The position numbers and the translations under genes are program-made. This document shows positions 3,895 to 44,651 of a DNA stretch of 45,190 bases, piece after piece. Location: sequence record PZ050807.1; one strand, given 5' to 3'. Origin of the DNA: a phage. Each line of letters starts with the position of its first letter. Position 1 is the stretch's first letter. The notes under the pieces were generated by a model. It did not search any database. It saw only the letters and a list, made by a program, of their open reading frames with translations, and was not told the origin of the DNA.

Positions 3895-3932
3895 TGGTTA
3901 ATATAGTGCAACCAAATACGGATTGCAACCAA
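3895..3932 (-). promoter_or_regulatory. Sigma70-type early promoter (minus strand): -35 TTGCAA, 17-nt spacer ending in ATTGGTTGCAC, -10 TATATT
   Basis: Read on the minus strand: TTGCAA(3928..3923)-17 nt-TATATT(3905..3900); two copies of the TTGGTTGCA motif. Confidence 0.55.
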
Positions 3933-4154
3933 TTATTTTAATTCCTCAATCAAATTGGCACGGACAATACGGGCCGAGAAGGCATCGCACACAAGATGGC
4001 AACGCGCCGTCATGACAAGCCAGCCGGTTAGGTCACGGCCTAGCAATTGCTCCGGGCGGCTTACCCGCAATACTTTATTTCCAGGGAAAACCAGGTAACG
4101 TTTAATGATCTCATCCACGACGCGCGGACTGCGATCGACGACTAAGATATTCAT
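3933..4154 (-). CDS. Hypothetical protein, 73 aa
   Basis: Strong RBS AAGGAGA upstream of the ATG at 4154; overlaps the 3' end of the methyltransferase ORF by 44 nt. Confidence 0.45.
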   Translation of the reverse strand: MNILVVDRSPRVVDEIIKRYLVFPGNKVLRVSRPEQLLGRDLTGWLVMTARCHLVCDAFSARIVRANLIEELK

Positions 4155-5352: not shown

Positions 5353-5390
5353 CCCCCAATATAATGCAACCAATCTCGCAATGCAACCAA
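5353..5390 (-). promoter_or_regulatory. Sigma70-type early promoter (minus strand) of the TTGGTTGCA family
   Basis: Minus strand: TTGCAT(5386..5381)-17 nt-TATATT(5363..5358); two TTGGTTGCA copies. Confidence 0.55.
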
Positions 5391-5394
5391 TTTA

Positions 5395-8327: not shown

Positions 8328-8606
8328 TTATGCGACCAATTCCGCAACCAATAAATCAGCGTCGTGAATGTTGTCGATTACGCGAACGTCGGCCCCGCGC
8401 TTCGCCATGCGCTCATGTTCACGTACCTGGTGCGGCTTCGGCTTACCACCGGGGCGCTTCACTTCAACGAATACGACTCTGCCGTTGATGATGATAATCA
8501 GGTCGGGGGCGCCGGTACGCCCTTCCCATGCCATTTTACGGCAGAATCCACCTGCCTCTTTTACCTCTTTCATCAGGTGACTTTGCACCTTGCCTTCAGG
8601 AGTCAT
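8328..8606 (-). CDS. VRR-NUC domain nuclease
   Basis: PDLIIIINGRVVFVEVKRPGGKPKPHQ matches the VRR-NUC (PD-(D/E)XK) signature; TAATG overlap with the polymerase stop. Confidence 0.6.
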   Translation of the reverse strand: MTPEGKVQSHLMKEVKEAGGFCRKMAWEGRTGAPDLIIIINGRVVFVEVKRPGGKPKPHQVREHERMAKRGADVRVIDNIHDADLLVAELVA

Positions 8607-14883: not shown

Positions 14884-15177
14884 ATGAATACGACTAAATT
14901 GAATGCTTTGTTAGATATGGTTGAGAATGGTGTTGATGTTGGTGCGGCCCGCGACGCTATTAACGTTGCGTTCAAAGACCTGGCCTACAAACTGGAATTA
15001 CTGAACGGTACGGCGGCGAGCAAGCTGCAAAAGCATAACGAAGAAATGGAAGAATACAAAAAGCAGGTTATCAGACTGCGCGAAGAGGGTAAGTCCTGGG
15101 CAATGATTGCCGAGCTAACAGGCATTAATCAAAGCACTGTACGCTCCTGGGTACGCAATGCTAAAACCGCTAAGTAA
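14884..15177 (+). CDS. Small HTH DNA-binding protein (putative transcriptional regulator)
   Basis: C-terminal helix-turn-helix SWAMIAELTGINQSTVRSWVRN; RBS AGGAGA. Confidence 0.55.
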   Translation: MNTTKLNALLDMVENGVDVGAARDAINVAFKDLAYKLELLNGTAASKLQKHNEEMEEYKKQVIRLREEGKSWAMIAELTGINQSTVRSWVRNAKTAK

Positions 15178-15189
15178 GGACTTGAGAAG

Positions 15190-17454
15190 ATGAGAAATAT
15201 AGAATTTGCGATCACACCCCCCGCTAAGAAAGGCGAATCTGCGGTAGCTCATAACCAGTCCATGACTACCGCCGAGTTTTTCGAATTTATCCAGGATGCA
15301 CCGGTAGTGTCGTCAGTTTGCATTAACGGTACTGAAGATAAAAAAGAATATGCGCGACGTAAGCGTAAAGGCGACGGCATTGTGGCTACAACCGCCGATG
15401 GCACGCGTAAAAAGACTGGCGTGGTTAGCCGCTCGATCCTGTTCTTCGACCTGGACCGTGCTGACAACCGCACACTTACCCGCTGCCGCAGGGCTTTCCG
15501 CAAGTCCGGCCTGGAATATGTCTACCACACCACCACCGGCGACCGCCACCCGTTGAAAGACGGCAAGCGCTGTGTGCGTTTCCTGGTGCTGACAAACAAG
15601 CCAGTTCCGGCGGAAGACTTGGGTCGCGCGCAGGCTGCACTGCTTGAGCAACTGGGTCTTACCGACGCGGGCTTTGATGACTGCTCGAAAGACACAAACC
15701 GCCTTATGTACCTGCCCCACCAGCAGGCTAAGGTCGAGTGTCATGAGGGTGAACGCGCTAACGTGCGTCGTCTGCTTCGCCTGGCTGACAAGATGGGTAT
15801 TGAGCAGGAAACGTTTCGCCGTGAACTGGTGCAGGGCGACGACGAGCAGATGAACGGCATCCTCGACTGGTGTTTCCAGGCTGGTTTTGAGCCGTTACCA
15901 TCCGGGCGCGGTTATGAAGTACCGTGCCCAAACGAACATCTGCACTCTGGTGAAGGGTCTACCGCTATCATGCTTAAGGATGGCGAGATTCGTTTCAAAT
16001 GTATGCACACCGGCAACGGATGCTGTTCTGAACTGAACAAACACCAACACCTGGCGCTGCGAATGATTGGTATCCCGGATATTTATAACGTGGAACCTCA
16101 CAACATGTCGCGCAAACAGATCTCGGCAATCCTGCCCGGACTGGACGATGAAGAAGTGGACGCGCAGTATGAGCACATGGTCGATCTGGTTGGCGAAGGT
16201 GAGGATTATGCGTCCTGTACTGACGCAGACCTGGAAGACGAACCAACGGCACTGTTCTCTAAACACGACCCGATCATCGAAGGTCTGATTAACTTCAAAT
16301 CGACCTGGTACGCAGCGGGTGAGTCGAACATTGGTAAATCCTTCTACATCCTGGGTCAGATGGCTGCCGTTGCCGCGGGCATCCCGTTCGGGGGCGCGAA
16401 GGTCGTCCAGTCGCATTGCTTCTACTTCGATGCGGAAGGTGGCGAGGCGTCCATCCAGCGTAAAGAAGCATTGCAGATTAAATATGAGCATGATCTTGAC
16501 AAGCTGCACATTGTTGACCTTCAGGCACGCGGCTGGGATATTACGAGCAAATCCGGCCTGCGTGAAGTAATCAGCTTTATCAACCGCACAGCGGATGGGG
16601 AACCGGTCGGCCTGGTGGCGTTCGACTCCCTTAACCAGACCGTGGCCCTGCGCTCGGCAGATGCCAAACCGTTCGACGAGAACAACGCAAGCGATATGGG
16701 TGAGATTGTCAAAGCGCTGAAGTCCATTGCGGAAAACACAGGAGGCAGTGCGGGCGTCATTCACCACCCGGCGAAGGGTGCAAACGGCAGCCGATCCCCG
16801 CGTGGGTCCGGTGCGCTACATGGCGCGGTGGATTCTGCATTCTTCCTGGAACAGCCAGACGAGAATCAGCCCGGACAGCTTAACCTGTATCATGAGAAAG
16901 CCCGTAACGGCGTAAAACAGGGTCCACGCGGCTTCGTACTACTTAAGTGCAAAGTGTCCATTAACGAGCGCAAGTCCGACACGTTCGAAGCGCACCAGTC
17001 CACTAACCCTGGTCCAGACTTCGGCGATGTGGTTGCCGGTTGGGACGTCAAGCCAATCCAGGCCACCCCGCGTGATGAGACTCTGTACCTTGTACCGGTA
17101 GCTCTGGCCCCGTTCGCTATCGAACAGGCGAAGGCCGCGGGCAAGCAGGCTGTTAAGGAAGAAAACCCCGCCGGTCCGCGCAATGAAAAAGAGAAAGTGC
17201 TTTACGCAGCGCTCGAAGCGTTGATGGAAGAGAATCCGGGACACCATGGCTTCAGCAAATCGGCAATCGTCCGCAAAGCCGGACTGGCGAAAGGTGGCAC
17301 ATCGACGAAGCCAATAGACGATATGCGTGAGCGCGGAATCATCGGCTTTTACAAAGACCCTGACACCGGGGCCATTTACGGGTCGTCGAATCTGGTTATC
17401 AATTCACAAATACCTATGCAATTGACGGCGACGGACGACGACCTTAAAGATTAA
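15190..17454 (+). CDS. DNA primase / replicative helicase fusion (primase-like N-terminal domain plus P-loop ATPase)
   Basis: Walker A GESNIGKSFYILG, Walker B LVAFDSLNQ; N-terminal primase-like region with Cys/His cluster (CPNEHLHSGEGS...CMHTGNGCC). Confidence 0.8.
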   Translation: MRNIEFAITPPAKKGESAVAHNQSMTTAEFFEFIQDAPVVSSVCINGTEDKKEYARRKRKGDGIVATTADGTRKKTGVVSRSILFFDLDRADNRTLTRCRRAFRKSGLEYVYHTTTGDRHPLKDGKRCVRFLVLTNKPVPAEDLGRAQAALLEQLGLTDAGFDDCSKDTNRLMYLPHQQAKVECHEGERANVRRLLRLADKMGIEQETFRRELVQGDDEQMNGILDWCFQAGFEPLPSGRGYEVPCPNEHLHSGEGSTAIMLKDGEIRFKCMHTGNGCCSELNKHQHLALRMIGIPDIYNVEPHNMSRKQISAILPGLDDEEVDAQYEHMVDLVGEGEDYASCTDADLEDEPTALFSKHDPIIEGLINFKSTWYAAGESNIGKSFYILGQMAAVAAGIPFGGAKVVQSHCFYFDAEGGEASIQRKEALQIKYEHDLDKLHIVDLQARGWDITSKSGLREVISFINRTADGEPVGLVAFDSLNQTVALRSADAKPFDENNASDMGEIVKALKSIAENTGGSAGVIHHPAKGANGSRSPRGSGALHGAVDSAFFLEQPDENQPGQLNLYHEKARNGVKQGPRGFVLLKCKVSINERKSDTFEAHQSTNPGPDFGDVVAGWDVKPIQATPRDETLYLVPVALAPFAIEQAKAAGKQAVKEENPAGPRNEKEKVLYAALEALMEENPGHHGFSKSAIVRKAGLAKGGTSTKPIDDMRERGIIGFYKDPDTGAIYGSSNLVINSQIPMQLTATDDDLKD

Positions 17455-17542: not shown

Positions 17543-17580
17543 GTGTAGTGCTAAATAAGTGAATAGTTATGCAAAATAAG

Positions 17581-17755
17581 TGCATAAAACAAACGGGACA
17601 AAAACGGGACAAACGACAAACGGGACAAAACGGGACGTCCCGCCGTCCCCCTCAGGAGTGGCGCGGGTTTGAGGCAAACGGGACAAGCGGGACAGACCAC
17701 AGTCTTTCAGACTAGACGGGGGGTATGGTCCCCCCTCCGTCTGAGACTGCATAAA
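17581..17755. repeat. Structured non-coding element A: ACGGGACA iterons, CGGGACGTCCCG palindrome and a long stem-loop; paralogue of 34104..34440
   Basis: Direct comparison with copy B: about 150 bp near-identical. Confidence 0.6.
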
Positions 17756-17907
17756 AGCTCTGGTTGCATAATCAACGGCAGCATAGTGAAAAATGCGGCG
17801 GGGGTAGATCTCGGCAACCAATGCGAGTTGAAGAGTGGAGAGTGAAAAATGCAGTTTGCAATTGCAACTCATAGCGATCAGCATTTTCATGCGCGTGATT
17901 AATATTG

Positions 17908-17936
17908 GTTGCACCCACCTTGGCACCTTGCTATAT
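17908..17936 (+). promoter_or_regulatory. Rightward promoter of the TTGGTTGCA family: -35 TTGCAC, 17 nt, -10 TATATT
   Basis: TTGCAC(17908..17913)-17 nt-TATATT(17931..17936). Confidence 0.5.
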
Positions 17937-17965
17937 TGGCTGCACACCATCATGAGGACTGAACA

Positions 17966-19573: not shown

Positions 19574-19593
19574 TTATGCAGTCGTGATATAGT

Positions 19594-19627
19594 CCCCAGT
19601 GAGGTTTAATCTTACTGGGGCTTTTTT
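19594..19627 (+). terminator. Intrinsic terminator immediately upstream of the holin gene
   Basis: Hairpin CCCCAGTGAGG-TTTAAT-CTTACTGGGG followed by CTTTTTT. Confidence 0.6.
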
Positions 19628-19930
19628 ATGGAAGTTTTCCACAAATTAGATGAATGGGTAATTATCGCCGCTGCCGGGGTGGCGGGTGGCTTCGTAGGTG
19701 CGCGTATGCACCCGGAAGCTGCACAAGGACCGGTAAACTTTGTGCTGTTCGTCGTCGTTGGCTTCCTGTGTGCTGTATTTGGTGCACCAGCCATCGCCGA
19801 ACTGACCGGCTTGACCAGTCAGCGCATGATCGCAGGTCTTGGATTCGTAACGGCAATCTTCTGGATGCCGATTGCGGCACGGATCCGAGAGCTAATCGCT
19901 AATGCCCGCTTTCCGGGAGGTGCCAAATGA
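19628..19930 (+). CDS. Holin candidate
   Basis: 100 aa with two to three transmembrane segments, directly upstream of the endolysin. Confidence 0.55.
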   Translation: MEVFHKLDEWVIIAAAGVAGGFVGARMHPEAAQGPVNFVLFVVVGFLCAVFGAPAIAELTGLTSQRMIAGLGFVTAIFWMPIAARIRELIANARFPGGAK

Positions 19931-22555: not shown

Positions 22556-22566
22556 TCTCACCACAG

Positions 22567-22589
22567 GCCCGCTTACGCGGGCTTTTTTG
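22567..22589 (+). terminator. Intrinsic terminator
   Basis: GCCCGC-TTAC-GCGGGC followed by TTTTTT. Confidence 0.65.
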
Positions 22590-22614
22590 TGTCTGCAATT
22601 CTCCCTGATATAAT
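22587..22614 (+). promoter_or_regulatory. Candidate promoter for the packaging/morphogenesis operon: TTGTGT-16 nt-TATAAT
   Basis: Consensus -10 TATAAT at 22609..22614. Confidence 0.45.
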
Positions 22615-22683
22615 CGTGACAGGTGGTTGGGCCACCTCCTATGTTGCCGATGGTCGGCGCATATGCATAAAGGGGTTATTATC

Positions 22684-23235
22684 ATGGCAGAAATCAAGGT
22701 AAAAGGCCGTCGTGCGAAGTTAGACGGGCGAGTCGCAGTCACTCCACGCCGCAAACCGGGCGAGCAAACCGAACACACCAATCTCGGACCTGAAATCGAG
22801 TACGGCAAACGCCGGAAAGGGGGCAAGTGTGGCCGTCCTACTGATTATCGGTCTGTTTATTGTCGCCAGTTGCGAGATTATTTTGCTTCAGCCGACGCAT
22901 GGCAAGTCAACTACTCGGACAAGGGTGCGGCGCAAGTTATCCCACGTAACAAGATGCCAACACTTGGGCGCTTTGCGGCGGAAATCGGGGTAGGCGTAGC
23001 ATGTCTGTATCGCTGGGCGCGTAAGCACGAAGAATTTGCCGAGGCGATGGCGGACGCGATGGAACTGCAAAAGACCTTTCTCATGGAAGCGGGTGGCGTG
23101 ACTATTGCTGCGGGATTTGCTGCATTCCTGCTTAAAGCCAACCACGGCGTACGCGACGATGCACCGCTGGAAGATGACGACGATGATAACGGCGACGTCA
23201 CTGTGGAGCCAGCCGGTAAAGGGCAGGGCGAGTAA
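22684..23235 (+). CDS. Terminase small subunit
   Basis: Position upstream of TerL; HTH GRFAAEIGVGVACLYRWARKHEEF; acidic C-terminus; start at MAEIKVKG. Confidence 0.6.
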   Translation: MAEIKVKGRRAKLDGRVAVTPRRKPGEQTEHTNLGPEIEYGKRRKGGKCGRPTDYRSVYCRQLRDYFASADAWQVNYSDKGAAQVIPRNKMPTLGRFAAEIGVGVACLYRWARKHEEFAEAMADAMELQKTFLMEAGGVTIAAGFAAFLLKANHGVRDDAPLEDDDDDNGDVTVEPAGKGQGE

Positions 23236-24620
23236 TGCGTAACTACGCGGCAGAGCACCGCGCACTAGATCGCAAGCTGGCGAAACGCAACCGTCCGCCT
23301 AAACCTACCCGTGTAGCGCAAGCGGTCCGGCTATACCAGCCGGATTGCCTGCCGCACCAGGTAGAGCTACTCCGCGACACGAAGACCAAAATCCTCGGCC
23401 TGTGTTCCGGCTTCGGCGGTGGAAAGTCATGGTCGGCGGCCCGTAAAGTCGTCCAGCTTCTGTGCCTGAATCCTGGCTATGACGGCATTGTGACCGAGCC
23501 GACAATCCCGCTTCTGGTTAAAATCATGTACCCGGAGCTAGAGAAGTCTTTCGACGAGGCCGGTTTGCGCTGGAAGTTCAATAAACAGGATAAGATTTAT
23601 AACGTACTGGTGAAGGGTAAATGGACCCGCGTAATTTGCGAGTCAATGGAGAACTACACCCGCTTGATCGGTATTAACGCCGCGTGGATTGTTGCCGATG
23701 AGTTCGACACCACGAAGCAGGACGTCGCTATGGCGGCGTATCACAAGCTACTCGGTCGTTTGCGTGCCGGTAATGTGCGTCAGTTCGTCATCGTATCCAC
23801 GCCAGAAGGCTTCCGGGCGATGTATCAGATTTTCGAAGTGGAGAAGGATAGCCAGAAACGTCTGATCCGGGCGAAGACTACCGACAACTTCCACTTACCG
23901 CCAGACTTCATCGACACGCTGCGAAGCCAGTACCCGGCAAACCTGATTGACGCATACCTGGACGGTAAATTCGTCAACCTTACATCAGGTGCGGTGTACA
24001 AGATGTTCGACCGTGAGCAGAACGCCAGTACCGAGGAAGTGCAGCCAGAAGACACGCTAATCATTGGCATGGACTTTAACGTCACGAAGATGGCGGCTGT
24101 GGTGTACGTCAGACGGCAGCGAGTCACGGAGGCGAAGGAGTTCCGCGACGAAATCCACGCAGTCGATGAGTTTGTTGACTTGTTCGATACGCCTGCAATG
24201 ATTGACGAGATTGAGGCACGCTACCCCGATCATTGTGCTGCCGGTAAGGTGGTGATTTACCCGGATAGCAGTGGCAAGTCCCGTAAGACGGTCAACGCGT
24301 CCTCTTCGGATATTGCACAACTGGAAGACGCAGGCTTTGAGGTGGAATATGACAGCGTTAACCCGCCGGTAAAAGACCGCCTGATTGCCATGAATACGAT
24401 GATGTGTAACTCGAAGGGTGTGCGTCAGTATTTTGTGAATATGGCTAAATGCCCTACACTGGCAAAATGTTTAGAACAGCAGGTTTACGACCTGAAGAAA
24501 GGCGAGCCGGATAAAACGGCCGGTGTGGACCACATGAATGACGCCGCGGGCTATCCGATTGTGCACCTGTTCCCTGTGATTCGACCGATTGCCGTTGTTC
24601 CGACCGTCGATTTCTACTAA
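23235..24620 (+). CDS. Terminase large subunit
   Basis: ATPase Walker A LCSGFGGGKSW and Walker B WIVADEFD; 461 aa; followed by portal. Confidence 0.85.
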   Translation: MRNYAAEHRALDRKLAKRNRPPKPTRVAQAVRLYQPDCLPHQVELLRDTKTKILGLCSGFGGGKSWSAARKVVQLLCLNPGYDGIVTEPTIPLLVKIMYPELEKSFDEAGLRWKFNKQDKIYNVLVKGKWTRVICESMENYTRLIGINAAWIVADEFDTTKQDVAMAAYHKLLGRLRAGNVRQFVIVSTPEGFRAMYQIFEVEKDSQKRLIRAKTTDNFHLPPDFIDTLRSQYPANLIDAYLDGKFVNLTSGAVYKMFDREQNASTEEVQPEDTLIIGMDFNVTKMAAVVYVRRQRVTEAKEFRDEIHAVDEFVDLFDTPAMIDEIEARYPDHCAAGKVVIYPDSSGKSRKTVNASSSDIAQLEDAGFEVEYDSVNPPVKDRLIAMNTMMCNSKGVRQYFVNMAKCPTLAKCLEQQVYDLKKGEPDKTAGVDHMNDAAGYPIVHLFPVIRPIAVVPTVDFY

Positions 24621-24632
24621 GAGGATAATTTA

Positions 24633-26153
24633 ATGTCTGTAAACGTGGACAACCAACACCCACTCTACGCGCGCATTGCGCCTGAGTGGAAGATGATCCG
24701 TGACTGCGTTGCAGGTGAAAGGGCCGTTAAAGCGTGCGGCCCGCTTTACTTGCCGTTTCCGTCCAGTGGCGACAACACCGACCCAAAAGCGAAGGCCCGC
24801 TACAAGGCATACAAGCAACGTGCGGTCTTCCTGAACGCCACCGCTCGCACGCTTAACGCGTTGCTGGGTATCGCCTTTGCGAAGCCAGTCACCATGAAGC
24901 TGTCCGGTAAAATCGCCGAGCTTATCGACGACGTAGACGGCAGCGGAATGCCATTGCCGCAGTTACTGCGTGGAGCGATGTCGGAAGTGCTGCAATCCGG
25001 GCGAGCCGGTTTTATGGTGGACTATGACCGCCAGGCGCATTTTGACGAACTGGGTAACGTCGTGCCGCAAACCGCCGCAGAGATGGCGATGCACCGTCCG
25101 CTCATTAAGCTGTACACGGCAGAGCAGATCATCAACTGGCGACAGACCCACGGGCAGGACACCTTGATCGTGCTGAAAGAGTGCGACGAAATCAGCACCG
25201 AAGATACCGACGATTTCGCAAACCACGAAGTTACGATATGGACCGAGCTACGAATGGTCAACGGCAAAGCACACGCCCGCCGCTGGTTTTTCAACGCAGA
25301 CACGTCCGAAGTGCAGATGGATTTACCGCGTGGCTTTACCAAAACCGACCTGGTGCCGCTGGTAGATTCTGCCGGTCGCGCACTGGATAGCCTGCCGTTT
25401 TGCTGGTGTGGTGCAGTCGATAACAACGCCACCCCGGACGCCGCGCCGCTGGCTGATATTGCGTCCATCAACATTAAGCACTACAACGCCGAAGCGGACG
25501 TTGCTGAGATTGCGCACATCGTAGGCCAGCCGACGCTAATCACTACCGGTCTGACCCAATCATGGGCCGATAAAAACCTGAAGGGTGGTATCGCGCTCGG
25601 TGCGACGAAGGGTGTTATCTTGGGCCAGAACATGGACGCCAAACTGCTTCAGGCCGAAGAACGCAACCTGTCCGTGGCATTGTGTGAACGCCGTGAGAAA
25701 CAGATGGCTAAACTCGGTGCGGCGCTGGTGGAGAAGGGGAGCGCACCTAAAACGGCAACAGAAGCGGCCTACGACGCGCAGACTGATAACAGTATCTTGT
25801 CGCTGATTGCCGGTAACGTTGAGAAGGCATTCAACAAGGCGCTTCAGATCGTGCAGTTGTTCACTGGTGACACCGCCGAGCAGACTGTAACCCTGAACAA
25901 GTTCTACACCGAAATCACGGTGGATGCGCAGTTGATGACCGCAATGATGAGCGGTGTACAGACTGGGACGGTCCGTCTTTCTGATTTCATCAAATGGATG
26001 ATGGCACAGGGTGTAATCGACGATTCGCAGACTGTAGACCAGGTGGAAGACGACTTGCGGAATCAGAATCCGTTGCCGCAAATGTCACCGGATGCGGTAA
26101 ACTTGGACGATGACGAATCGGACAAGGTAGATGACGATGCCGAGGAAAATTAA
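24633..26153 (+). CDS. Portal protein
   Basis: 506 aa ORF directly after TerL with acidic C-terminus; synteny. Confidence 0.7.
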   Translation: MSVNVDNQHPLYARIAPEWKMIRDCVAGERAVKACGPLYLPFPSSGDNTDPKAKARYKAYKQRAVFLNATARTLNALLGIAFAKPVTMKLSGKIAELIDDVDGSGMPLPQLLRGAMSEVLQSGRAGFMVDYDRQAHFDELGNVVPQTAAEMAMHRPLIKLYTAEQIINWRQTHGQDTLIVLKECDEISTEDTDDFANHEVTIWTELRMVNGKAHARRWFFNADTSEVQMDLPRGFTKTDLVPLVDSAGRALDSLPFCWCGAVDNNATPDAAPLADIASINIKHYNAEADVAEIAHIVGQPTLITTGLTQSWADKNLKGGIALGATKGVILGQNMDAKLLQAEERNLSVALCERREKQMAKLGAALVEKGSAPKTATEAAYDAQTDNSILSLIAGNVEKAFNKALQIVQLFTGDTAEQTVTLNKFYTEITVDAQLMTAMMSGVQTGTVRLSDFIKWMMAQGVIDDSQTVDQVEDDLRNQNPLPQMSPDAVNLDDDESDKVDDDAEEN

Positions 26154-28449: not shown

Positions 28450-28479
28450 TGTTGTTTCCTCGTTTGTTGGTGTGCAACC

Positions 28480-28508
28480 AATATATTGCAACCAATTAGC
28501 CAATGCAA
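28480..28508 (-). promoter_or_regulatory. Early-type promoter (minus strand): -35 TTGCAT, 17 nt with ATTGGTTGCAA, -10 TATATT
   Basis: Minus strand: TTGCAT(28508..28503)-17 nt-TATATT(28485..28480). Confidence 0.5.
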
Positions 28509-29333: not shown

Positions 29334-29400
29334 CGAGCGTGAAAAATTAGGGTAACATTAAAAGCACTGGGCGATTGCTCTCTACTCAAAGGATAAACTT

Positions 29401-30522
29401 ATGTCTTTAACAGTGTTCCAGCGTAAACTCGTCACCGCGGTTACGCAAATGATCCCCGACAACTTGAACGTCTTCAACGCTGCCGCTAACGGCGCGGTCG
29501 TTCTCGGTACTGGCGAAGTGCTGAAAGATGTTGTCGAGAAGATGTCTGTAGGTCTGATCGCCAACCTGGTGTCTGACCGTAACGCATATGCCCCGGTTGG
29601 TACTCCTGCCGATGCGAAAGTGCTGGCGCGTATGCTGACCAACTCCGTTAACCTGTCCGCGAAAGTCGGTCCTGTTGCAATCACCAAAGCTATGATGGCT
29701 AAAATCGAAACCAACGTTAACAGCGTTGCGGCTGAGATTGCGGCACAGGCTACTCAAGCTATCTTGCTGCACTACCTGAAAGCGGGTATCGGCGCTGGTA
29801 AAGCTGCGATCGACACTAACGCTGCGGCGAAATATACCCAACCGGCGCGCGTTGACGGTGTAGGCGGTCGTACCTTCCCGACCCTGGCAGACTTCCCGCT
29901 GGCGGCGGCTAAGTTCGGCGATCAGGCATCTCTGATTAAGTCCTGGTTTATGGACGGTGTGACCTGGGCTAACTTCATTGCATATCAGGCGCTGCCTTCT
30001 GCTGAGCAGGTGTTCGCGATCGGCGACCTTCAGGTAATGGGTGATGGCTTAGGCCGCCGCTTTATTATCTCCGATGCCGCTGCCGATGCAATGGGCGCTG
30101 GCAAAATGCTGGGTCTTGTTCCGGGCGCGGTAGCAGTTACTACCAACGGTCTGGATATGCTGGCGCAGGAGCGTGGTGGTAACGAGAACATCGAGCGCTG
30201 GTGGCAGGGTGAGTTTGACTTTAACGTCGCTGTTAAAGGCTATCGCATGACCGCGGCAGCACGCGCAGGCGTTGAAGGCGTCCGTTCCTTCAAACTGGCT
30301 GATATTACCAATACCAGTAACTGGGAACTGGATCAGGGCCAGGTCGATAACGCGCCGTACACTACCTACGACGTTGGCGGCACGGATACTGAAGAGGGAT
30401 CTACCACTTCACTGAAAGAGAAAGGTCGTCGTCGTAAGCAGGACGCGCAGGCCGTACCGACCCGCCACATCAAGGAAACTGCCGGTGTGTTGGTAACTCT
30501 GACGGCAACCACCGCATCTTAA
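29401..30522 (+). CDS. Major capsid protein
   Basis: 373 aa ORF after the scaffold, strong RBS context, flanked by terminators; synteny. Confidence 0.65.
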   Translation: MSLTVFQRKLVTAVTQMIPDNLNVFNAAANGAVVLGTGEVLKDVVEKMSVGLIANLVSDRNAYAPVGTPADAKVLARMLTNSVNLSAKVGPVAITKAMMAKIETNVNSVAAEIAAQATQAILLHYLKAGIGAGKAAIDTNAAAKYTQPARVDGVGGRTFPTLADFPLAAAKFGDQASLIKSWFMDGVTWANFIAYQALPSAEQVFAIGDLQVMGDGLGRRFIISDAAADAMGAGKMLGLVPGAVAVTTNGLDMLAQERGGNENIERWWQGEFDFNVAVKGYRMTAAARAGVEGVRSFKLADITNTSNWELDQGQVDNAPYTTYDVGGTDTEEGSTTSLKEKGRRRKQDAQAVPTRHIKETAGVLVTLTATTAS

Positions 30523-31188: not shown

Positions 31189-31542
31189 ATGGCGGGCTTT
31201 GACTATCGGGCGTTGAAACGGAAAGTTAATCCGTTGATTAAGAAATTTGGCATGAAGGTGATGGCATCACGTCCAGGCGGCGTGGTGCGCGTGGGCGGCG
31301 AGGAAGTGGTGACGCCGCCGTTATCGTTTGAAATCGTCGGCCTGCGTGAAGAATACAAGCCGCATGAGATAGACGGAACGCGTGTCCTTTCCGGGGACGT
31401 TAAATTTTTATGCCAGGCTACCGAGCAGTTGCAGGTTGGTGACACGGTTAATCTGAATAACATCGACTACCGCGTGGTGAATCCTAACCCCCTGCAACCG
31501 GCAGCTACAACAATGCTGTTCCAGTTACAGCTAAGGGGCTAA
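31189..31542 (+). CDS. Head-tail joining protein candidate
   Basis: Synteny; strong RBS GAAGGAGG. Confidence 0.45.
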   Translation: MAGFDYRALKRKVNPLIKKFGMKVMASRPGGVVRVGGEEVVTPPLSFEIVGLREEYKPHEIDGTRVLSGDVKFLCQATEQLQVGDTVNLNNIDYRVVNPNPLQPAATTMLFQLQLRG

Positions 31543-31543
31543 C

Positions 31544-32134
31544 GTGGCAGAACAGTATTCTTTCGCGGCTACGATCGCAACGTGGGTAGAGAAGACGAAA
31601 GAGAACAACGATAAGGCGGTGCGGGCGGTGGGTATGCAAATCCTCGGTCGCCTTATCGAGATCTCGCCAGTTGGCGACCCGAAGCGCTGGAAGATTAACC
31701 GCGCTTTCGCCCTTGCGCGGGAACACGCTAACAGAGTTAACGCCGCACAGCGAAAGAAGAACGGCGGCAAACTGAAGCGAGGCCAGAAGAAGCACGCAAG
31801 CGTACTGGTTAGCTTCACGACGAAGAAAGGGCAGGTGACTTTCCGCCAGCGTGGCTGGGCCGCTAAGAATTACACCGGCGGGCGCTTCCGGGGAAACTGG
31901 CAGGTGTCATTTGATCGCCCGGCTACCGGTACAGTTGACCGCATCGACAAGGCGGGGGCCGCCACACTTGCCGCAGGGCGTGAGATTCTGGTGCAGTATG
32001 ATTCGGACACGTACGGGTCGATCTGGTTTACTAACAATGTGCCGTATGCGCAGCGACTGGAGTACGGCTGGAGTAAACAAGCGCCCGCGGGCATCGTCCG
32101 CGTAGTGGCGGCAGAAATTAATTCGAAGGTGTGA
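31544..32134 (+). CDS. Neck / tail-completion protein candidate (HK97 gp10-like position)
   Basis: Synteny; GTG start with RBS AAGGGG. Confidence 0.45.
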   Translation: MAEQYSFAATIATWVEKTKENNDKAVRAVGMQILGRLIEISPVGDPKRWKINRAFALAREHANRVNAAQRKKNGGKLKRGQKKHASVLVSFTTKKGQVTFRQRGWAAKNYTGGRFRGNWQVSFDRPATGTVDRIDKAGAATLAAGREILVQYDSDTYGSIWFTNNVPYAQRLEYGWSKQAPAGIVRVVAAEINSKV

Positions 32135-33775: not shown

Positions 33776-34089
33776 TTGAGGCGGCGCGACGCTTCTATGG
33801 TCCGCCGCCACCGTCCGAAGACCTTGCCGCTAGTTTATGGGGTGCGGCCCCCGAAGATATTTGTCCGCCAGTTGCATTATGGCCTGATAACGTACAGGTC
33901 GTTGCCGTTTTCACTGACTGCTCAACGCAGTGGCGCACCGGTTTTAACGGAGCATACGGCATCGACTACGGCGTGCTGGAATGGCTATTTAAAATGCACG
34001 GCATCGAAAATGAGAAGCGAGCTTTTAAAGATATCAAGTTAATGGAGCGTATTGCACTCGACGAAATTGCAGCACAACAGGCCGGGTAA
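33766..34089 (+). CDS. Tail assembly chaperone extension (gpT-like), expressed as a G-T fusion by -1 programmed frameshift at A_AAA_AAC
   Basis: Heptamer A AAA AAC at 33766..33772; the -1 frame is open from 33766 to the TAA at 34087..34089. Confidence 0.5.
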   Translation, partial: KKLIEAARRFYGPPPPSEDLAASLWGAAPEDICPPVALWPDNVQVVAVFTDCSTQWRTGFNGAYGIDYGVLEWLFKMHGIENEKRAFKDIKLMERIALDEIAAQQAG

Positions 34090-34103
34090 TTCCGGCCTTT
34101 TTC
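34080..34103 (+). terminator. Intrinsic terminator after the GT chaperone ORF
   Basis: GGCCGG-GTAATT-CCGGCC followed by TTTTT. Confidence 0.6.
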
Positions 34104-34106
34104 ATA

Positions 34107-34430
34107 GCGGGACAGCGGGACGTCCCGTTTTTGTCCCGCTGTCCCGCCCCGCCAAAAACTGCATACCTATTCAGAAATACTGCATAAAACCAAAACGGGA
34201 CAAAAACGGGACAAGCAGGACGTCCCGCCTCAAAAGTGCATATCTATGCAGTTTTCATGCATAAAACGAACGGGACAAAAACGGGACAAACTGCAAGCGG
34301 GACAGAGCGGGACGTCCCGCCGTCCCTGCCAGAGCTGCCGCGGGTTTCAGCCGATCGGGACAGGCGGGACAAAGCCAAGTCTTTCAGACTAGACGGGGGT
34401 CAATGGCCCCCTCCGTCTGAGACTGAATAA
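34107..34430. repeat. Structured non-coding element B: GGGAC/GTCCC iterons, palindromes and a conserved stem-loop; paralogue of 17581..17755
   Basis: Several ACGGGACA iterons, three GGGACGTCCC palindromes, 13-bp inverted repeat GCGGGACAGCGGG/CCCGCTGTCCCGC, hairpin at 34378..34425. Confidence 0.6.
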
Positions 34431-34492
34431 GGTTGGTTGCAAAATGACTGATACAATACAAACGGCAACTTGCATAAAAAGGGGACTGCATA

Positions 34493-37135
34493 ATGGCAGA
34501 TCAAGCGGCAGGCATCACGCTAAAGGCGGATGTTGCACAAATCAGAACGGCGAATACTGTGCTTGATTCATTCGCACAGAAATCCGAGAACACAGAAAAC
34601 AAGGTTAAGAAGTTAAACAACACCCTCGGCAAATCTAAAAAGGTGACGAGTGATGCCGCTGGCGGAATGGAAAAGCTGGCGAACGAATCGCATCGAGCAG
34701 CCGATGGCATGACGAAACAGGAGCGACTCGCCAACCGGTTAGGCATGTCGACCAAAAACCTGGGCTTTGCCTCGCATAACGCCGCATTCCAGTTACAGGA
34801 TATAGCGGTTACGCTTGAGATGGGTATGCCGGTGCACCGCGTCATGCTTCAGCAGTTACCACAGCTTACTGGGGCGTTCGGTGGGTTTGGTAACACGCTG
34901 CGTTATGTTGCTGGCTTCCTCGGCCCAGTAGGGATCGGAATTGCAGCACTAACGGCAACGTTAGGCGTAGGGGTGGCAATTACGACACGTGCCGAAAACC
35001 AGGTAGCAGCGCTTAACAAGACGCTGGCGCTATCCGGTAACATTTCCGGCCTAACTGCAAACCAGATCCTGGTGCTATCCGAGAACGCCGAGCGCATGGG
35101 CGGGTCGTTCCGCAAGACGCGTGACACAATCCAGGCGCTGGCGGCGGCGGGTGTGAAAGCGGGTGCAGACTTCGGCACGCTGGCGAAAGTGGTGAATGAT
35201 TTTGCGAAGGTGTCCAGCCAGCCGATCGAGGATGTGGTCGCGGCGGTGGCGAAGCTGTCTACCGACCCGGTAGGTGGCTTGCGAGCATTGGCTGATAAGT
35301 ATCACGTCGTAAACGAAGCGCAGATCCAGCAGGTGCAGTCACTAGTGACGGCTGGTCGCGAAACCGAAGCGGTGGCGCTGGCTAACAAAACAGCCGCAGC
35401 GTCGTTTACCACTATGACCAATGAGATCAAGTCCAACATGGGTACGCTTGAGCGGTCGATGAACGTCGTTACATCGGCAGCTAAATCTATGTGGGATGCC
35501 ATCCTGGATGTTGGACGCGCGCAGTCCTCGAATGAGTCAGAGATGAAAGCGCGTGAATCATTGCAGCGACTGACCACGGCTTACTATGCCGAGATGAAAG
35601 CGGTAAACGCTGCCGGTGGGGTGATGACCGAAGCGCAGAAAGCGCGTATTAACATGCTTTACAGCGAACTGGTCGCCCAGGAGAAGGTGGTGGCGTCGCT
35701 CACCATGCGCAACCGTGCCGAGCGGGACAACGCCAGCGCCGCGGACGCAGCAGCAAAGGCGAACGAAGAGGCAAACCGCACCGCCCGCGACCGCGCTGCG
35801 TTTGAGAAGGAGTACGCAACCAACGCGAAGAGGCGCGCCGACGAGATCGCCCGCCTCAATTTGCTTAATAAGCGCGGCGTGATTGACGAGAAAGAGCTTG
35901 CCGAGGCGGTGAAGCAGGTAAACGAGCGTTACAAAGACCCCGCCCCGAAGAAGGCCGCCGCTGTTCGAGTCGATGCCGGGCTGAAAATGCTGGAAGTAGC
36001 ACGGAGCGAACTGGCACAGCTTCGTGAGTCTGGAAAGCAGATCGAAGCCAACTCCTCGACGCAGACCCGAACGCAACGCGCGCAAGCGGCCCTGAACAAG
36101 CTGATCGCGGATAATGAGCAGTTAATCGCCGCAAGCAAAGAAAGAGCACTAACGGCAGCCGAAAAGCAGCAGATGGTCGAATTCGGACGCGTGAAGGAAG
36201 TACGCGAGCAGATCGTCGAAGAAGCCAAATTGCTGGACGCGAAAGAGAAGCAGGTCAAGGCGCACGCGCAGATCGACGCCTTCGTTAAGAACCAGAACGC
36301 CGAGCTAAAAGCCACCGCGGCGGGCTATGCGCTTTCCACTCGCGAAGCGGCAAACCTGCGTGAAGAATTGCAGCTAATTGACCGCCTGAAGCGGGTGGGC
36401 GCTAGTGATGCCGATATTGATCTGGCGGTGTCTAAACTGCGCGAAGTGCAGGAAGCACAGACCGGTGCTAACGCCTCACTATGGGATGGATTCAGCCGTG
36501 GGCTTAAGGATAGCGTGGATGAAATGGGTAACGGCTATACGCAGATGGTATCGGCAACGAAATTTACATTCGGCGCTATGATGGACACGATGAATGAATT
36601 TTTCGAGACTGGTAAATTCAACGCGAAGGAAATGATTAAATCCATCCTGAGCGAATTTATCAAGCTGGCTACCTCGCAGGCGTTCAAGTCCGTAATCAAC
36701 GCATTCGGCGGTGACGGTGGGAAGAATGGTCTGTTCGGGGCAATCTTCTCCGGTCTGACGAAGAATGCCGACGGTGGAGCGTACGCTGGCGGCAACCTGT
36801 CCGCATATTCCGGTCAGATCGTAAGCCAGCCAACCTTTTTCAATTACGGCGTTAAGGCGTTCGCTAACGGCGCGGGATTGATGGGTGAGGCTGGGCCGGA
36901 GGCCATCATGCCGCTGAAGCGCGGGCCGGACGGTAAACTGGGCGTTGCCGCAAGTGGGGCTGGTGGTGGTATCGTCGTGACAACGAACGTGAACATGGGT
37001 ACAGGGCAGGCTGACACCAGCGTTAAAGGGACCGACCCGCGAATGGGGCAGGTATTCGGCAAGCAGATCACGGAAGCGGTTAAGGCCGAAATCGTGAAAG
37101 CGACTAAACCAGGTGGAGTACTTTACAAACGATGA
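34493..37135 (+). CDS. Tail tape measure protein
   Basis: 880 aa, coiled-coil rich, downstream of G/GT chaperones and upstream of tail-tip genes. Confidence 0.85.
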   Translation: MADQAAGITLKADVAQIRTANTVLDSFAQKSENTENKVKKLNNTLGKSKKVTSDAAGGMEKLANESHRAADGMTKQERLANRLGMSTKNLGFASHNAAFQLQDIAVTLEMGMPVHRVMLQQLPQLTGAFGGFGNTLRYVAGFLGPVGIGIAALTATLGVGVAITTRAENQVAALNKTLALSGNISGLTANQILVLSENAERMGGSFRKTRDTIQALAAAGVKAGADFGTLAKVVNDFAKVSSQPIEDVVAAVAKLSTDPVGGLRALADKYHVVNEAQIQQVQSLVTAGRETEAVALANKTAAASFTTMTNEIKSNMGTLERSMNVVTSAAKSMWDAILDVGRAQSSNESEMKARESLQRLTTAYYAEMKAVNAAGGVMTEAQKARINMLYSELVAQEKVVASLTMRNRAERDNASAADAAAKANEEANRTARDRAAFEKEYATNAKRRADEIARLNLLNKRGVIDEKELAEAVKQVNERYKDPAPKKAAAVRVDAGLKMLEVARSELAQLRESGKQIEANSSTQTRTQRAQAALNKLIADNEQLIAASKERALTAAEKQQMVEFGRVKEVREQIVEEAKLLDAKEKQVKAHAQIDAFVKNQNAELKATAAGYALSTREAANLREELQLIDRLKRVGASDADIDLAVSKLREVQEAQTGANASLWDGFSRGLKDSVDEMGNGYTQMVSATKFTFGAMMDTMNEFFETGKFNAKEMIKSILSEFIKLATSQAFKSVINAFGGDGGKNGLFGAIFSGLTKNADGGAYAGGNLSAYSGQIVSQPTFFNYGVKAFANGAGLMGEAGPEAIMPLKRGPDGKLGVAASGAGGGIVVTTNVNMGTGQADTSVKGTDPRMGQVFGKQITEAVKAEIVKATKPGGVLYKR

Positions 37136-37142
37136 TAAAATG

Positions 37143-37171
37143 GCCCTCACACACAACGTGAGGGCTTTTTT
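37143..37171 (+). terminator. Intrinsic terminator/attenuator after the tape-measure gene
   Basis: GCCCTCAC-ACACAAC-GTGAGGGC followed by TTTTTT. Confidence 0.65.
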
Positions 37172-37771
37172 ATGGCACAAGGTACAATCACAGTGACGAA
37201 TGGTAGTAAGACCGTCACAGGCGCGGGCACAGCGTTTTTAAGCGCATTGGGTAAGGTATTCGTGCTGGCCACCATCGACGGCAACGACTACATTGCTAAA
37301 ATCGCGTCATTCAACTCTAACACTTCAATCACACTGGTGGACAATTGGCCCGGACCGACTAAATCCGGCGCTGCATACGACTTGATTGAGGCGCACGACC
37401 AGCGGGCTAATGAGTGGCCCTACTATTGGCATATGCAATTGCAAGGCGGTGGCGACGTGCAGTTATCATTCCGCACCGAAGAATTGCAATTTGGCAACGG
37501 GTACGGGCAGAACATCGCAGATGGGCCGAACGCCGAGACGAAACAATTCCCGATCCAGTTTGTAGGCTTGACTAACGACAAGTGGAATAACCCTAAGCTG
37601 GTCTATAACTTCCTGCGCGCGCATTTTGTAAAGCCGTTTATTGTCACCGCGCCGGATGGGGAGAAGGGGCTCTACGTTGTAGAGCGGTCGAGCTTGTCGT
37701 ACACTGACAACGGACACTATACGGCAACCGTATCAGCGACACTTAAAACCGCAATTGGATTCGTGCAATGA
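37172..37771 (+). CDS. Minor tail / distal tail protein (gpM slot) with a fibre-like N-terminal domain
   Basis: Synteny; first ~70 aa paralogous to the N-terminus of the side tail fibre (44652..). Confidence 0.5.
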   Translation: MAQGTITVTNGSKTVTGAGTAFLSALGKVFVLATIDGNDYIAKIASFNSNTSITLVDNWPGPTKSGAAYDLIEAHDQRANEWPYYWHMQLQGGGDVQLSFRTEELQFGNGYGQNIADGPNAETKQFPIQFVGLTNDKWNNPKLVYNFLRAHFVKPFIVTAPDGEKGLYVVERSSLSYTDNGHYTATVSATLKTAIGFVQ

Positions 37772-44599: not shown

Positions 44600-44628
44600 A
44601 ATATAGTGCAACCAATACGTGATTGCAA
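44600..44628 (-). promoter_or_regulatory. Early-type promoter (minus strand): -35 TTGCAA, 17 nt with ATTGGTTGCAC, -10 TATATT
   Basis: Minus strand: TTGCAA(44628..44623)-17 nt-TATATT(44605..44600). Confidence 0.55.
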
Positions 44629-44651
44629 CCAATTTATGAGGAGTTTTCGCT

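What the first reader, a model, noticed from the sequence alone, without database searches (positions are those of the whole stretch)
34468..34499. Shared translation-initiation context TGCATAAA(A)GGGG ... ATGGCAG for terminase small subunit and tape measure
The regions upstream of TerS (22653..22690: GCATATGCATAAAGGGGTTATTATCATGGCAG) and of the tape-measure gene (ACTTGCATAAAAAGGGGACTGCATAATGGCAG) share TGCATAAA(A)GGGG and the first codons ATGGCAG. The TGCATAA motif also recurs throughout both GGGAC elements. This may be a late-gene regulatory box (transcriptional or translational) rather than coincidence.
Basis: seen in the sequence. Interest (0 to 1): 0.4.

Follow-up and report, generated by a model that had tools for sequence, protein, structure and literature searches.

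The report
Two similar ribosome-binding sites, not a shared box
The look-alike sequences in front of the terminase small subunit and tape-measure genes of this Dhillonvirus phage are two ordinary strong ribosome-binding sites; only the tape-measure copy carries a conserved TGCATAA motif, and that copy is the tail end of a larger repeated non-coding element.

Summary
The window is a complete Dhillonvirus (HK578/SO-1-like) genome, 99.7% identical to phage Ioannina.

**The observation.** The two quoted strings exist. Both have AAAGGGG, an 8-nt spacer and ATGGCAG. Two details are off: the A-run is 3 versus 5, and the terS 32-mer lies at 22659-22690.

**Chance.** Ten of 1540 pairs of gene-start contexts in this genome are at least as similar. 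AAGGGG Shine-Dalgarno sequences occur at 5 genes and Met-Ala starts at 9.

**terS in relatives.** TGCAT is not conserved. Variants are TGCAC, TGAAC and TGTAT, and the C site is as variable as neutral sites. Some annotators place this stretch inside the terS coding sequence.

**Tape-measure (TMP) gene in relatives.** The leader CGGCAAC-TGCAT-A5-8-GGGGAC-TGCATA-ATG is nearly invariant (diversity 0.01, against 0.25 at third codon positions).
- Its "GGGG" belongs to a GGGAC box.
- The leader is the 3' end of "GGGAC element B", a genus-wide, two-copy non-coding element already flagged as regions A and B in the SO-1 GenBank record.

**What the two genes really share.** Each has its own conserved extended -10 promoter (TGATATAAT, TGATACAAT) and a short, A-rich, unstructured leader.

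**Verdict.** A shared late-gene box is not supported. A TMP-specific cis element of unknown partner is real. Interest is low.

The parts
34449..34457 (+). Extended -10 promoter TGATACAAT for the tape-measure gene. No usable -35. Transcription start inferred near 34464.
   Evidence: CTGATACAAT is invariant in 15 relatives while the 6-7 nt downstream of it vary. Found in the window-wide TGnTAnnnT scan. Activity is inferred, not shown.
34471..34477 (+). TGCATAA box 1 in the TMP leader, followed by an A-run (34476-34480).
   Evidence: Conserved in 12 of 13 leader variants (one has TGAAT). The A-run length varies from 5 to 8.
34481..34486 (+). GGGGAC: the Shine-Dalgarno sequence of TMP (AAGGGG, 8 nt before ATG), which is also a GGGAC box of element B.
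   Evidence: G4-5 AC is conserved; only SO-1 has GGGGGC. It is unpaired in the predicted fold. Compare the unit starts TGCATAAAAC-AAAC-GGGAC.
34487..34499 (+). TGCATAA box 2 overlapping the TMP start codon (ATG 34493), then GCAG. CTGC/GCAG can form a 4-bp hairpin with the AUG in its loop.
   Evidence: Positions -12..-1 have diversity 0.010 against 0.248 at TMP third codon positions. The hairpin appears in the centroid fold. An in-frame TAA at 34475 leaves ATG 34493 as the first possible start.
34100..34470 (+). Body of GGGAC element B.
- Palindromic GGGAC cluster 34107-34147.
- Two units of TGCATA-nn-TATKCA, 7 nt, TGCATAAA, then CGGGACA arrays (from 34160 and 34237).
- Terminal hairpin 34378-34424, abutting TGAATAA 34424-34430.
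   Evidence: Sequence. Genus-wide alignment. CGGGACA occurs 18 times against 5.85 expected, 15 of them in the two elements. Annotated as a repeat region in the SO-1 record.
34079..34105 (+). Intrinsic terminator after the tail-chaperone genes, present only in the window's clade.
   Evidence: It is absent from most relatives as an insertion/deletion difference.
22565..22590 (+). Intrinsic terminator upstream of terS.
   Evidence: Conserved in relatives with changes on both arms of the stem.
22606..22614 (+). Extended -10 promoter TGATATAAT for terS.
   Evidence: Relatives have TGTTATAAT 11 nt further upstream, directly after the terminator. Activity is inferred.
22621..22663 (+). terS leader with two hairpins: 22621-22637, which covaries with relatives, and 22640-22663, inside an invariant 30-nt block.
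   Evidence: Fold, alignment. Diversity over -51..-22 is 0.028.
22663..22690 (+). The terS initiation region.
- Upstream in-frame ATG at 22663.
- TGCATAA 22664-70.
- Shine-Dalgarno AAGGGG 22670-75.
- 8-nt spacer, then ATG 22684 followed by GCAG.
   Evidence: Always 21 nt from the upstream ATG to ATG 22684 in relatives, but TGCAT varies (TGCAC, TGAAC, TGTAT). HK578 and Ioannina annotate the upstream ATG as the start. Three BASEL records (Bas84, PaulFeyerabend, TheodorHerzl) begin at the downstream ATG.
17555..17790 (+). GGGAC element A, the ancestral copy, just after the helicase-primase gene. It holds four further TGCATAA/TTATGCA words.
   Evidence: A homologous element sits at the same place in Salmonella phage SE1.

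Best explanation
The two sites are independent translation-initiation regions of two genes that each head their own transcription unit. Each gene has four features:
1. an upstream terminator (at TMP only in the window's clade);
2. a conserved extended -10 sigma-70 promoter (TGATATAAT for terS, TGATACAAT for TMP);
3. an A-rich, unpaired stretch, at the 3' end of the terS leader and along most of the short TMP leader;
4. an AAGGGG Shine-Dalgarno sequence 8 nt before an ATG-GCA (Met-Ala) start.

These generic requirements of an efficient, uncoupled ribosome-binding site produce most of the resemblance. The extra TGCAT at terS is a lineage-specific accident.

The TMP leader is different in kind. 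It is the last unit of GGGAC element B (a TGCATAAA word, an A-run and a GGGAC box, then a second TGCATAA over the start codon). Its strong conservation reflects whatever uses that element, not a regulon shared with terS.

**Shown:** the sequences, their conservation or lack of it, their statistics, and the absence of stable leader structure.
**Inferred:** promoter activity, the transcription start, the Shine-Dalgarno function and the choice of the terS start codon.
For: - **terS motif not conserved.** TGCAT is not conserved in 33 relative loci. The Shine-Dalgarno G-run, the 8-nt spacing and ATGGCAGA are conserved. Per-site diversity is 0.59 at the C and 0.25 at the T.
- **TMP leader conserved.** Nearly invariant in 13 variants from more than 30 loci, including EE09. 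Diversity is 0.010 against 0.248 at third codon positions.
- **The pair is not an outlier.** 10 of 1540 pairs are at least as similar without gaps, and it ranks about 12th with gaps.
- **The shared features are common.** AAGGGG lies within 20 nt of 5 gene starts and GCN is the second codon of 9 genes.
- **Promoters and terminators.** Extended -10 elements are conserved at both genes. Terminators lie upstream of both.
- **Leader structure.** Leaders fold no better than shuffles (z -0.04 and -0.97), and the A-run and Shine-Dalgarno sequence stay unpaired.
- **No regulon.** TGCATAA lies within 80 nt upstream of no other gene start.
- **TGCATAA belongs to the elements.** Its words cluster in the two elements in HK578 as well, and are absent from the HK578 terS leader.
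Against: - The SD-to-ATG spacer ACTGCATA and box 1 at TMP are far more conserved than an ordinary ribosome-binding site needs. Something beyond ribosome binding acts there.
- The C/A polymorphism at the third position (TGMATAA) is seen both at terS and in the elements.
- About half of the relatives keep TGCAC at terS, so a degenerate relationship cannot be excluded.
- No transcription-start, expression or binding data exist for any Dhillonvirus in the searched literature.
Confidence: 0.7

Rival explanations
1. TGCATAA (more exactly TGMATAA) is a half-site for a sequence-specific DNA-binding protein, from the phage or the host, that occupies the GGGAC elements. At TMP, boxes lie at about -41, +8 and +24 relative to the inferred transcription start. 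Binding there would switch TMP and tail-gene transcription on or off. terS is not part of the circuit.
For: - TGCATAA is enriched (17 against 6.2).
- Three imperfect palindromes TGMATA-nn-TATKCA keep an identical geometry with the next TGCATAAA and the first CGGGACA box.
- The palindrome box GTGAATAGTTATTC is kept in the sister-lineage phage SE1, although that phage's iteron word differs.
- The TMP leader boxes are nearly invariant.
Against: - No binding protein has been identified.
- The spacing between the two leader boxes varies from 16 to 19 nt with the A/G-run length. That is unfavourable for a rigid dimer.
- The second halves of the palindromes are poorly conserved in unit 2.
Confidence: 0.25
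2. The TMP leader is an mRNA-level translational operator. Either the small CUGC/GCAG hairpin holding the AUG in its loop, or a protein bound to CUGCAUAA, throttles translation of the tape-measure protein, which is needed in few copies.
For: - The SD-to-ATG spacer and the first codons are invariant.
- The 4-bp hairpin is the centroid structure in the window and in SO-1.
- The one natural variant in the 3' arm (GCAG to GTAG, locus L005) keeps a G-U pair.
Against: - The hairpin is only 4 bp.
- The leader folds no better than shuffles (z -0.04).
- There is no true covariation to test.
- No RNA family matches.
Confidence: 0.12
3. One reading: TGCATAAA(A)GGGG...ATGGCAG is a late-gene regulatory box that co-regulates terS and TMP.
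For: - The composite pattern occurs only at these two genes.
- Both genes head transcription units.
- About half of the relatives keep TGCAC at terS.
Against: - The terS TGCAT varies at 2 of 5 positions, even in the closest relative (TGTAT, L018).
- The stretch may be coding.
- The motif is absent from all other late-gene upstream regions.
- The pair's similarity lies within the genome's own background.
Confidence: 0.06

Closest known systems
Canonical bacterial translation-initiation region (Shine-Dalgarno sequence plus an A/U-rich upstream enhancer)
   Same: - AAGGGG pairs with the anti-SD sequence with one G-U pair.
- 8-nt spacing to an ATG start.
- A-rich, unpaired sequence just upstream of the Shine-Dalgarno sequence.
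- The Shine-Dalgarno sequence and its spacing are conserved in orthologues.
   Different: At TMP the spacer and the upstream word are themselves invariant, and the Shine-Dalgarno sequence doubles as a GGGAC box of a repeated element. That is more constraint than a plain ribosome-binding site needs.
Extended -10 (TGn) sigma-70 promoters
   Same: TGATATAAT and TGATACAAT match TGnTAnAAT. They lack a good -35, sit 35-70 nt before the start codon, and are conserved in relatives.
   Different: Activity has not been demonstrated. At terS the element has moved 11 nt between clades.
Iteron-type replication regions, such as lambda ori, or phage P4 ori plus crr bound by its primase-helicase (recalled from memory, an analogy only)
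   Same: - For the surrounding GGGAC elements: arrays of a short GC-rich word separated by A-tracts at 9-11 bp.
- Both orientations occur.
- The ancestral copy is adjacent to the helicase-primase gene.
- There are two separated copies.
- The word changes with the phage lineage.
   Different: - No evidence of origin function.
- The helicase-primase here is a RecA/DnaB-like AAA_25 protein, not P4 alpha.
- Element B ends in a promoter and the TMP ribosome-binding site.
Phage translational operators such as T4 RegA targets (recalled from memory)
   Same: An AU-rich word overlapping the ribosome-binding site and start codon of a specific mRNA.
   Different: No RegA-like protein has been identified, and the word occurs at only one conserved site.

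Membership tests
Shine-Dalgarno ribosome-binding site | Purine-rich complement to the 16S rRNA 3' end, 5-10 nt upstream of a start codon | tested here: met
   AAGGGG lies 8 nt before the ATG at both genes.
Shine-Dalgarno ribosome-binding site | Element and spacing conserved in orthologous genes | tested here: met
   The G-run and the 8-nt spacing are kept in all relatives at both genes.
Shine-Dalgarno ribosome-binding site | Accessible (unpaired) in the mRNA | tested here: met
   Unpaired in both the minimum-energy and centroid folds. Leaders are not more stable than shuffles. This is a prediction only.
Shared cis-regulatory box (regulon motif) for late genes | Present upstream of several co-regulated genes | tested here: not met
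   TGCATAA lies within 80 nt upstream of only terS and TMP among 56 genes.
Shared cis-regulatory box (regulon motif) for late genes | Conserved at orthologous positions in relatives | tested here: not met
   Conserved at TMP but not at terS, where the variants are TGCAC, TGAAC and TGTAT.
Shared cis-regulatory box (regulon motif) for late genes | Similarity beyond the background of gene-start contexts | tested here: not met
   10 of 1540 pairs are at least as similar. The pair ranks about 12th with gaps.
Extended -10 sigma-70 promoter | TGn immediately upstream of a TAnnnT hexamer, conserved and upstream of the gene | tested here: met
   Positions 22606 and 34449. Conserved in relatives.
Extended -10 sigma-70 promoter | Transcription initiates about 7 nt downstream | not testable with these tools
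   Needs transcription-start mapping. No Dhillonvirus transcriptome was found.
Known RNA family (Rfam) | Match to a curated covariance model at the gathering score | tested here: not met
   No hits in the whole window. Only sub-threshold hairpin or terminator matches in the three regions.
Iteron-type origin or cis replication region (for the surrounding GGGAC elements) | Arrays of a repeated binding word next to the initiator or helicase gene | tested here: met
   CGGGACA occurs 18 times against 5.85 expected, clustered in elements A and B. Element A directly follows the helicase-primase gene. SE1 has the same layout with another word.
Iteron-type origin or cis replication region (for the surrounding GGGAC elements) | Replication starts there, or the initiator binds the word | not testable with these tools
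   GC skew follows gene orientation only.

The most novel reading that the evidence does not exclude
The tape-measure gene's promoter, leader and Shine-Dalgarno sequence are built from the last unit of a genus-wide, two-copy iteron-like element. Whatever protein reads the TGCATAA and GGGAC words would then directly gate expression of the tape-measure and distal tail genes, coupling tail synthesis to replication state. That protein could be the helicase-primase encoded next to the ancestral copy, or a host factor.
Probability: 0.12. Interest if true: 0.55.

Novelty: new member of a known kind. Interest (0 to 1): 0.2.

Why it matters
As proposed, a late-gene box shared by terS and TMP, it would have given a handle on late regulation in a phage genus whose transcription is unstudied. 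The evidence says there is no such shared box.

What remains useful:
- A clean anatomy of two late transcription-unit starts (terminator, extended -10 promoter, leader, ribosome-binding site).
- An argument that terS starts at ATG 22684 rather than the annotated 22663.
- The observation that the TMP ribosome-binding site is physically part of the conserved GGGAC element. This gives a concrete, mutable target for finding out what that element does.

Tried and rejected
- **Rfam.** The whole window at gathering score, and the three regions at E of 1 or less, gave nothing beyond generic hairpin or terminator noise.
- **Leader structure.** Folding of both leaders showed no significant structure.
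- **Element structure.** RNAalifold on 36 distinct element cores predicted only the terminal hairpin, with an invariant stem and so no covariation. The GGGAC boxes are conserved as sequence, not as pairs.
- **Element B as coding sequence.** Rejected, because 1-nt indels between relatives break the 57-aa ORF 34257-34430.
- **GC skew as a pointer to an origin.** It only mirrors gene orientation.
- **The element core outside the genus.** None in 185,579 GTDB genomes. Exactly the Dhillonvirus contigs in IMG/VR, two copies in nearly every contig.
- **Literature.** Searches for Dhillonvirus or HK578/SO-1 promoters, repeats and termini found no study of these elements. Only headful packaging is reported.
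- **Known binding sites, compared by eye only.** Sigma-54, LexA, DnaA, IHF and Fis consensus sequences were considered and dropped as poor or inconsistent across relatives. A resemblance of TGMATA-nn-TATKCA to an ARG box is kept only as an untested lead.
- **CsrA-sponge idea for the GGGAC repeats.** Disfavoured, because the boxes occur in both orientations and no CsrB- or Rsm-type match was found.
Full report
**Identity of the window.** The 45,190-bp window is a complete, circularly permuted Dhillonvirus genome (HK578/SO-1-like siphovirus of E. coli). It is 99.6-99.8% identical to Dhillonvirus LM40P1 and Escherichia phage Ioannina, and 80-90% identical to about 150 other records. The genome map follows the Ioannina and HK578 annotations:
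- Leftward early and replication genes run to about 14,870.
- Rightward come a small HTH gene and a 754-aa helicase-primase (15190-17454).
- A 510-nt non-coding region follows.
- Then small genes and the lysis cassette, then terS (22684) through the head and tail genes.
- The tape-measure (TMP) gene is at 34493-37135.

**The observation.** Both strings are present.
- terS: TGCAT (22664) AAA GGGG TTATTATC ATGGCAG.
- TMP: TGCAT (34471) AAAAA GGGG ACTGCATA ATGGCAG.
- The A-runs differ by two, not one. The terS 32-mer starts at 22659.
- AAAGGGG-N8-ATGGCAG is found only at these two genes.
- TGCATAA is over-represented: 17 against 6.2 expected, with none of 100 shuffles reaching 17.
- Eight of the 17 copies lie in the two "GGGAC elements" and the TMP leader.

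**Is the pair more alike than gene starts usually are?** I compared 56 gene-start contexts all against all.
- Over -16..+7 the terS-TMP pair has 16/23 identities. Ten of 1540 pairs reach 16 or more, and three reach 17, including portal/major capsid at 17/23 and 23/32.
- With gapped local alignment of -32..+7 the pair ranks about 12th of 1540.
- AAGGGG lies within 20 nt of five gene starts (20678, terS, 31544, TMP, 38559).
- Nine genes start Met-Ala, and 31544 even reads GTGGCAG.
- A k-mer survey of the 80 nt upstream of all genes finds a different dominant shared motif, the TATATTGGTTGCAC promoter family.
- That survey places TGCATAA only at terS and TMP, plus one inverted copy at 19574.

The resemblance is real but lies within the genome's own background for ribosome-binding sites.

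**Conservation at terS.** I collected the orthologous regions from IMG/VR, metagenomes and GenBank.
- The 21 nt before ATG 22684 read ATGCACAAAAGGGCTTATATC in 16 loci, ATGAACAAAAGGGC... in 13, ATGTATAAAGGGG... in 3, and ATGCATAAAGGGG... only in the window. Some contigs were fetched more than once, so these are locus counts.
- Per-site diversity is 0.59 at the C of TGCAT and 0.25 at its T, against 0.28 at terS third codon positions.
- The A-run, the G-run, the 8-nt spacing and ATGGCAGA are conserved.
- The ATG overlapping the motif (22663) is in frame, and the HK578 and Ioannina records use it as the terS start. It has no Shine-Dalgarno sequence and abuts a stable hairpin.
- The records of Bas84 JohannBuxtorf, PaulFeyerabend and TheodorHerzl begin exactly at the downstream ATG.
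- I favour ATG 22684. Under either start, TGCAT is not a conserved regulatory word at terS.

**Conservation at TMP.**
- The leader CGGCAAC-TGCAT-A(5-8)-G(4-5)AC-TGCATA-ATGGCAGATCA is nearly invariant in 13 sequence variants from more than 30 loci, including EE09, described by its authors as a novel species.
- The only exceptions are one TGAAT and one GGGGGC.
- Diversity over -12..-1 is 0.010, against 0.248 at TMP third codon positions.
- An in-frame TAA at 34475 leaves ATG 34493 as the first possible start codon in that frame.

**What the two genes really share.**
- Each follows an intrinsic terminator: 22565-84 (conserved), and 34079-98 (only in the window's clade).
- Each has an extended -10 element: TGATATAAT at 22606 and TGATACAAT at 34449.
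- The TMP element is invariant in relatives while the next 6-7 nt vary.
- At terS, relatives carry TGTTATAAT directly after the terminator. The window has lost that copy and has a new one 11 nt downstream.
- Leaders fold no better than shuffles (z -0.04 and -0.97), and the A-run and Shine-Dalgarno sequence stay unpaired.

Both genes therefore look like first genes of their own transcripts, needing an autonomous, strong ribosome-binding site. That is enough to explain A-rich + AAGGGG + 8 nt + ATG-GCA.

**The TMP leader is part of GGGAC element B.** Two about 200-390-nt non-coding elements share a common plan. Element A (17555-17790) lies after the helicase-primase gene. Element B (34100-34492) lies between the tail chaperones and TMP. 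The plan is:
1. An imperfect palindrome TGMATA-nn-TATKCA.
2. Seven nt later, TGCATAAA.
3. Phased CGGGACA boxes: 18 in the window against 5.85 expected, 15 of them in the two elements.
4. Inverted GTCCC copies.
5. An invariant-stem hairpin (17701-17748; 34378-34424).
6. TGMATAA abutting the hairpin.
7. A -10-like element followed by CGGCA(A/G)C.

The TMP leader repeats the unit start: TGCATAAA, an A-run and GGGAC.

Distribution of the elements:
- The element core occurs in the Dhillonvirus contigs of IMG/VR, two copies in nearly every contig, and nowhere in 185,579 GTDB genomes.
- In HK578 the TGCATAA words again cluster in the two elements and are absent from the terS leader.
- The SO-1 GenBank record already annotates the two as repeat regions A and B. 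They are not new, although no paper in the searched library discusses them.

**Context from a sister lineage.** Salmonella phage SE1 (Guernseyvirinae) has a helicase-primase 44.5% identical to this one.
- It has one homologous element at the same position.
- That element keeps the GTGAATAGTTATTC box and the ACACGGCAAC end, but carries GGGGGAGA boxes instead of CGGGACA.
- SE1 has no element before its TMP.
- Element A is therefore ancestral, element B is a Dhillonvirus duplication, and the repeated word changes with the phage lineage.

This behaviour fits binding sites for a phage protein, whether iteron-like or activator sites. RNAalifold on 36 distinct cores supports only the terminal hairpin and shows no covariation. 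Rfam has no match. Function remains unknown. This part is inference.

**Mechanism and verdict.**
- Most likely (about 0.7), the terS-TMP resemblance is convergence of two strong, promoter-proximal ribosome-binding sites plus a lineage-specific chance TGCAT at terS.
- The excess conservation of the TMP leader shows that something more acts there. It could be a DNA-binding factor for the TGCATAA and GGGAC words (about 0.25), or an mRNA-level operator or small CUGC/GCAG hairpin around the AUG (about 0.12).
- These two readings overlap with the main explanation rather than exclude it.

Interest is low for the finding as stated. The GGGAC elements themselves are the more interesting object.

Noticed in passing
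window 3908-3933, 5366-5391, 8332-8352, 17904-17943, 28474-28496, 44608-44633 (also 17466, 17498, 17533, 17814): The 9-mer ATTGGTTGC occurs in 17 exact copies, mostly in pairs 12-31 bp apart just upstream of genes on the same strand. At 17904-17934 it forms TTGCAC-N17-TATATT, a good sigma-70 promoter. It is probably the phage's early or middle promoter family. Three direct copies and one inverted copy of CGCATTGGTTGCC flank GGGAC element A.
   Followed up: partly
window 19585-19627 and 37133-37171: Two extended -10 elements (TGATATAGT, TGATAAAAT) are each followed directly by a terminator-like hairpin with a T-run. Each sits just before a gene start (the first holin-cassette gene at 19628, and the minor tail gene at 37172). 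The layout recalls promoter-proximal attenuation or antitermination arrangements.
   Followed up: no
window 22621-22663: The terS leader has a hairpin that covaries with relatives (AGGTGGTTGGGCCACCT against AGATGGCAGGGCCGTCT). It is followed by a 30-nt block, CTCCTATGTTGCCGATGGTCGGCGCATATG, that is almost invariant across the genus (diversity 0.028) and contains a second hairpin. The function is unknown: regulatory RNA, or related to pac.
   Followed up: partly
window 24601-24639 and 29369-29407: The start contexts of the portal and major capsid genes share CGATT..TCTACT.A.AGGATAA..T.ATGTCT (23/32 ungapped). They are more alike than the terS-TMP pair.
   Followed up: no
window 22663 versus 22684: Public records disagree on the terS start. 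HK578 and Ioannina use the upstream ATG, giving 191 aa. Three BASEL records (Bas84, PaulFeyerabend, TheodorHerzl) begin at ATGGCAG, giving 183 aa. The Shine-Dalgarno sequence and the variable 7-codon extension favour 22684.
   Followed up: partly
window 14884-15177: The 97-aa protein at the head of the rightward early operon matches sigma-70 region 4 and HTH_23. It is a candidate DNA-binding regulator for one of the repeated words.
   Followed up: no
L095 (phage EE09), reverse strand, about 31380-31940: EE09's element A lacks the middle segment (inverted GTCCC boxes and the third pair of GGGAC boxes). This looks like a deletion between two GGGACAGCACCCC repeats, so that part of the element is dispensable in copy A.
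   Followed up: no
window about 34274-34400 and about 17455: Several public Dhillonvirus records and metagenome contigs begin or end inside element A or B (Maverick, EcoIv6a_Kente, CHD5UKE2, loci L012 and L047). These are most simply assembly breaks at the about 200-bp repeat, not real genome ends. Packaging is reported as headful.
   Followed up: partly
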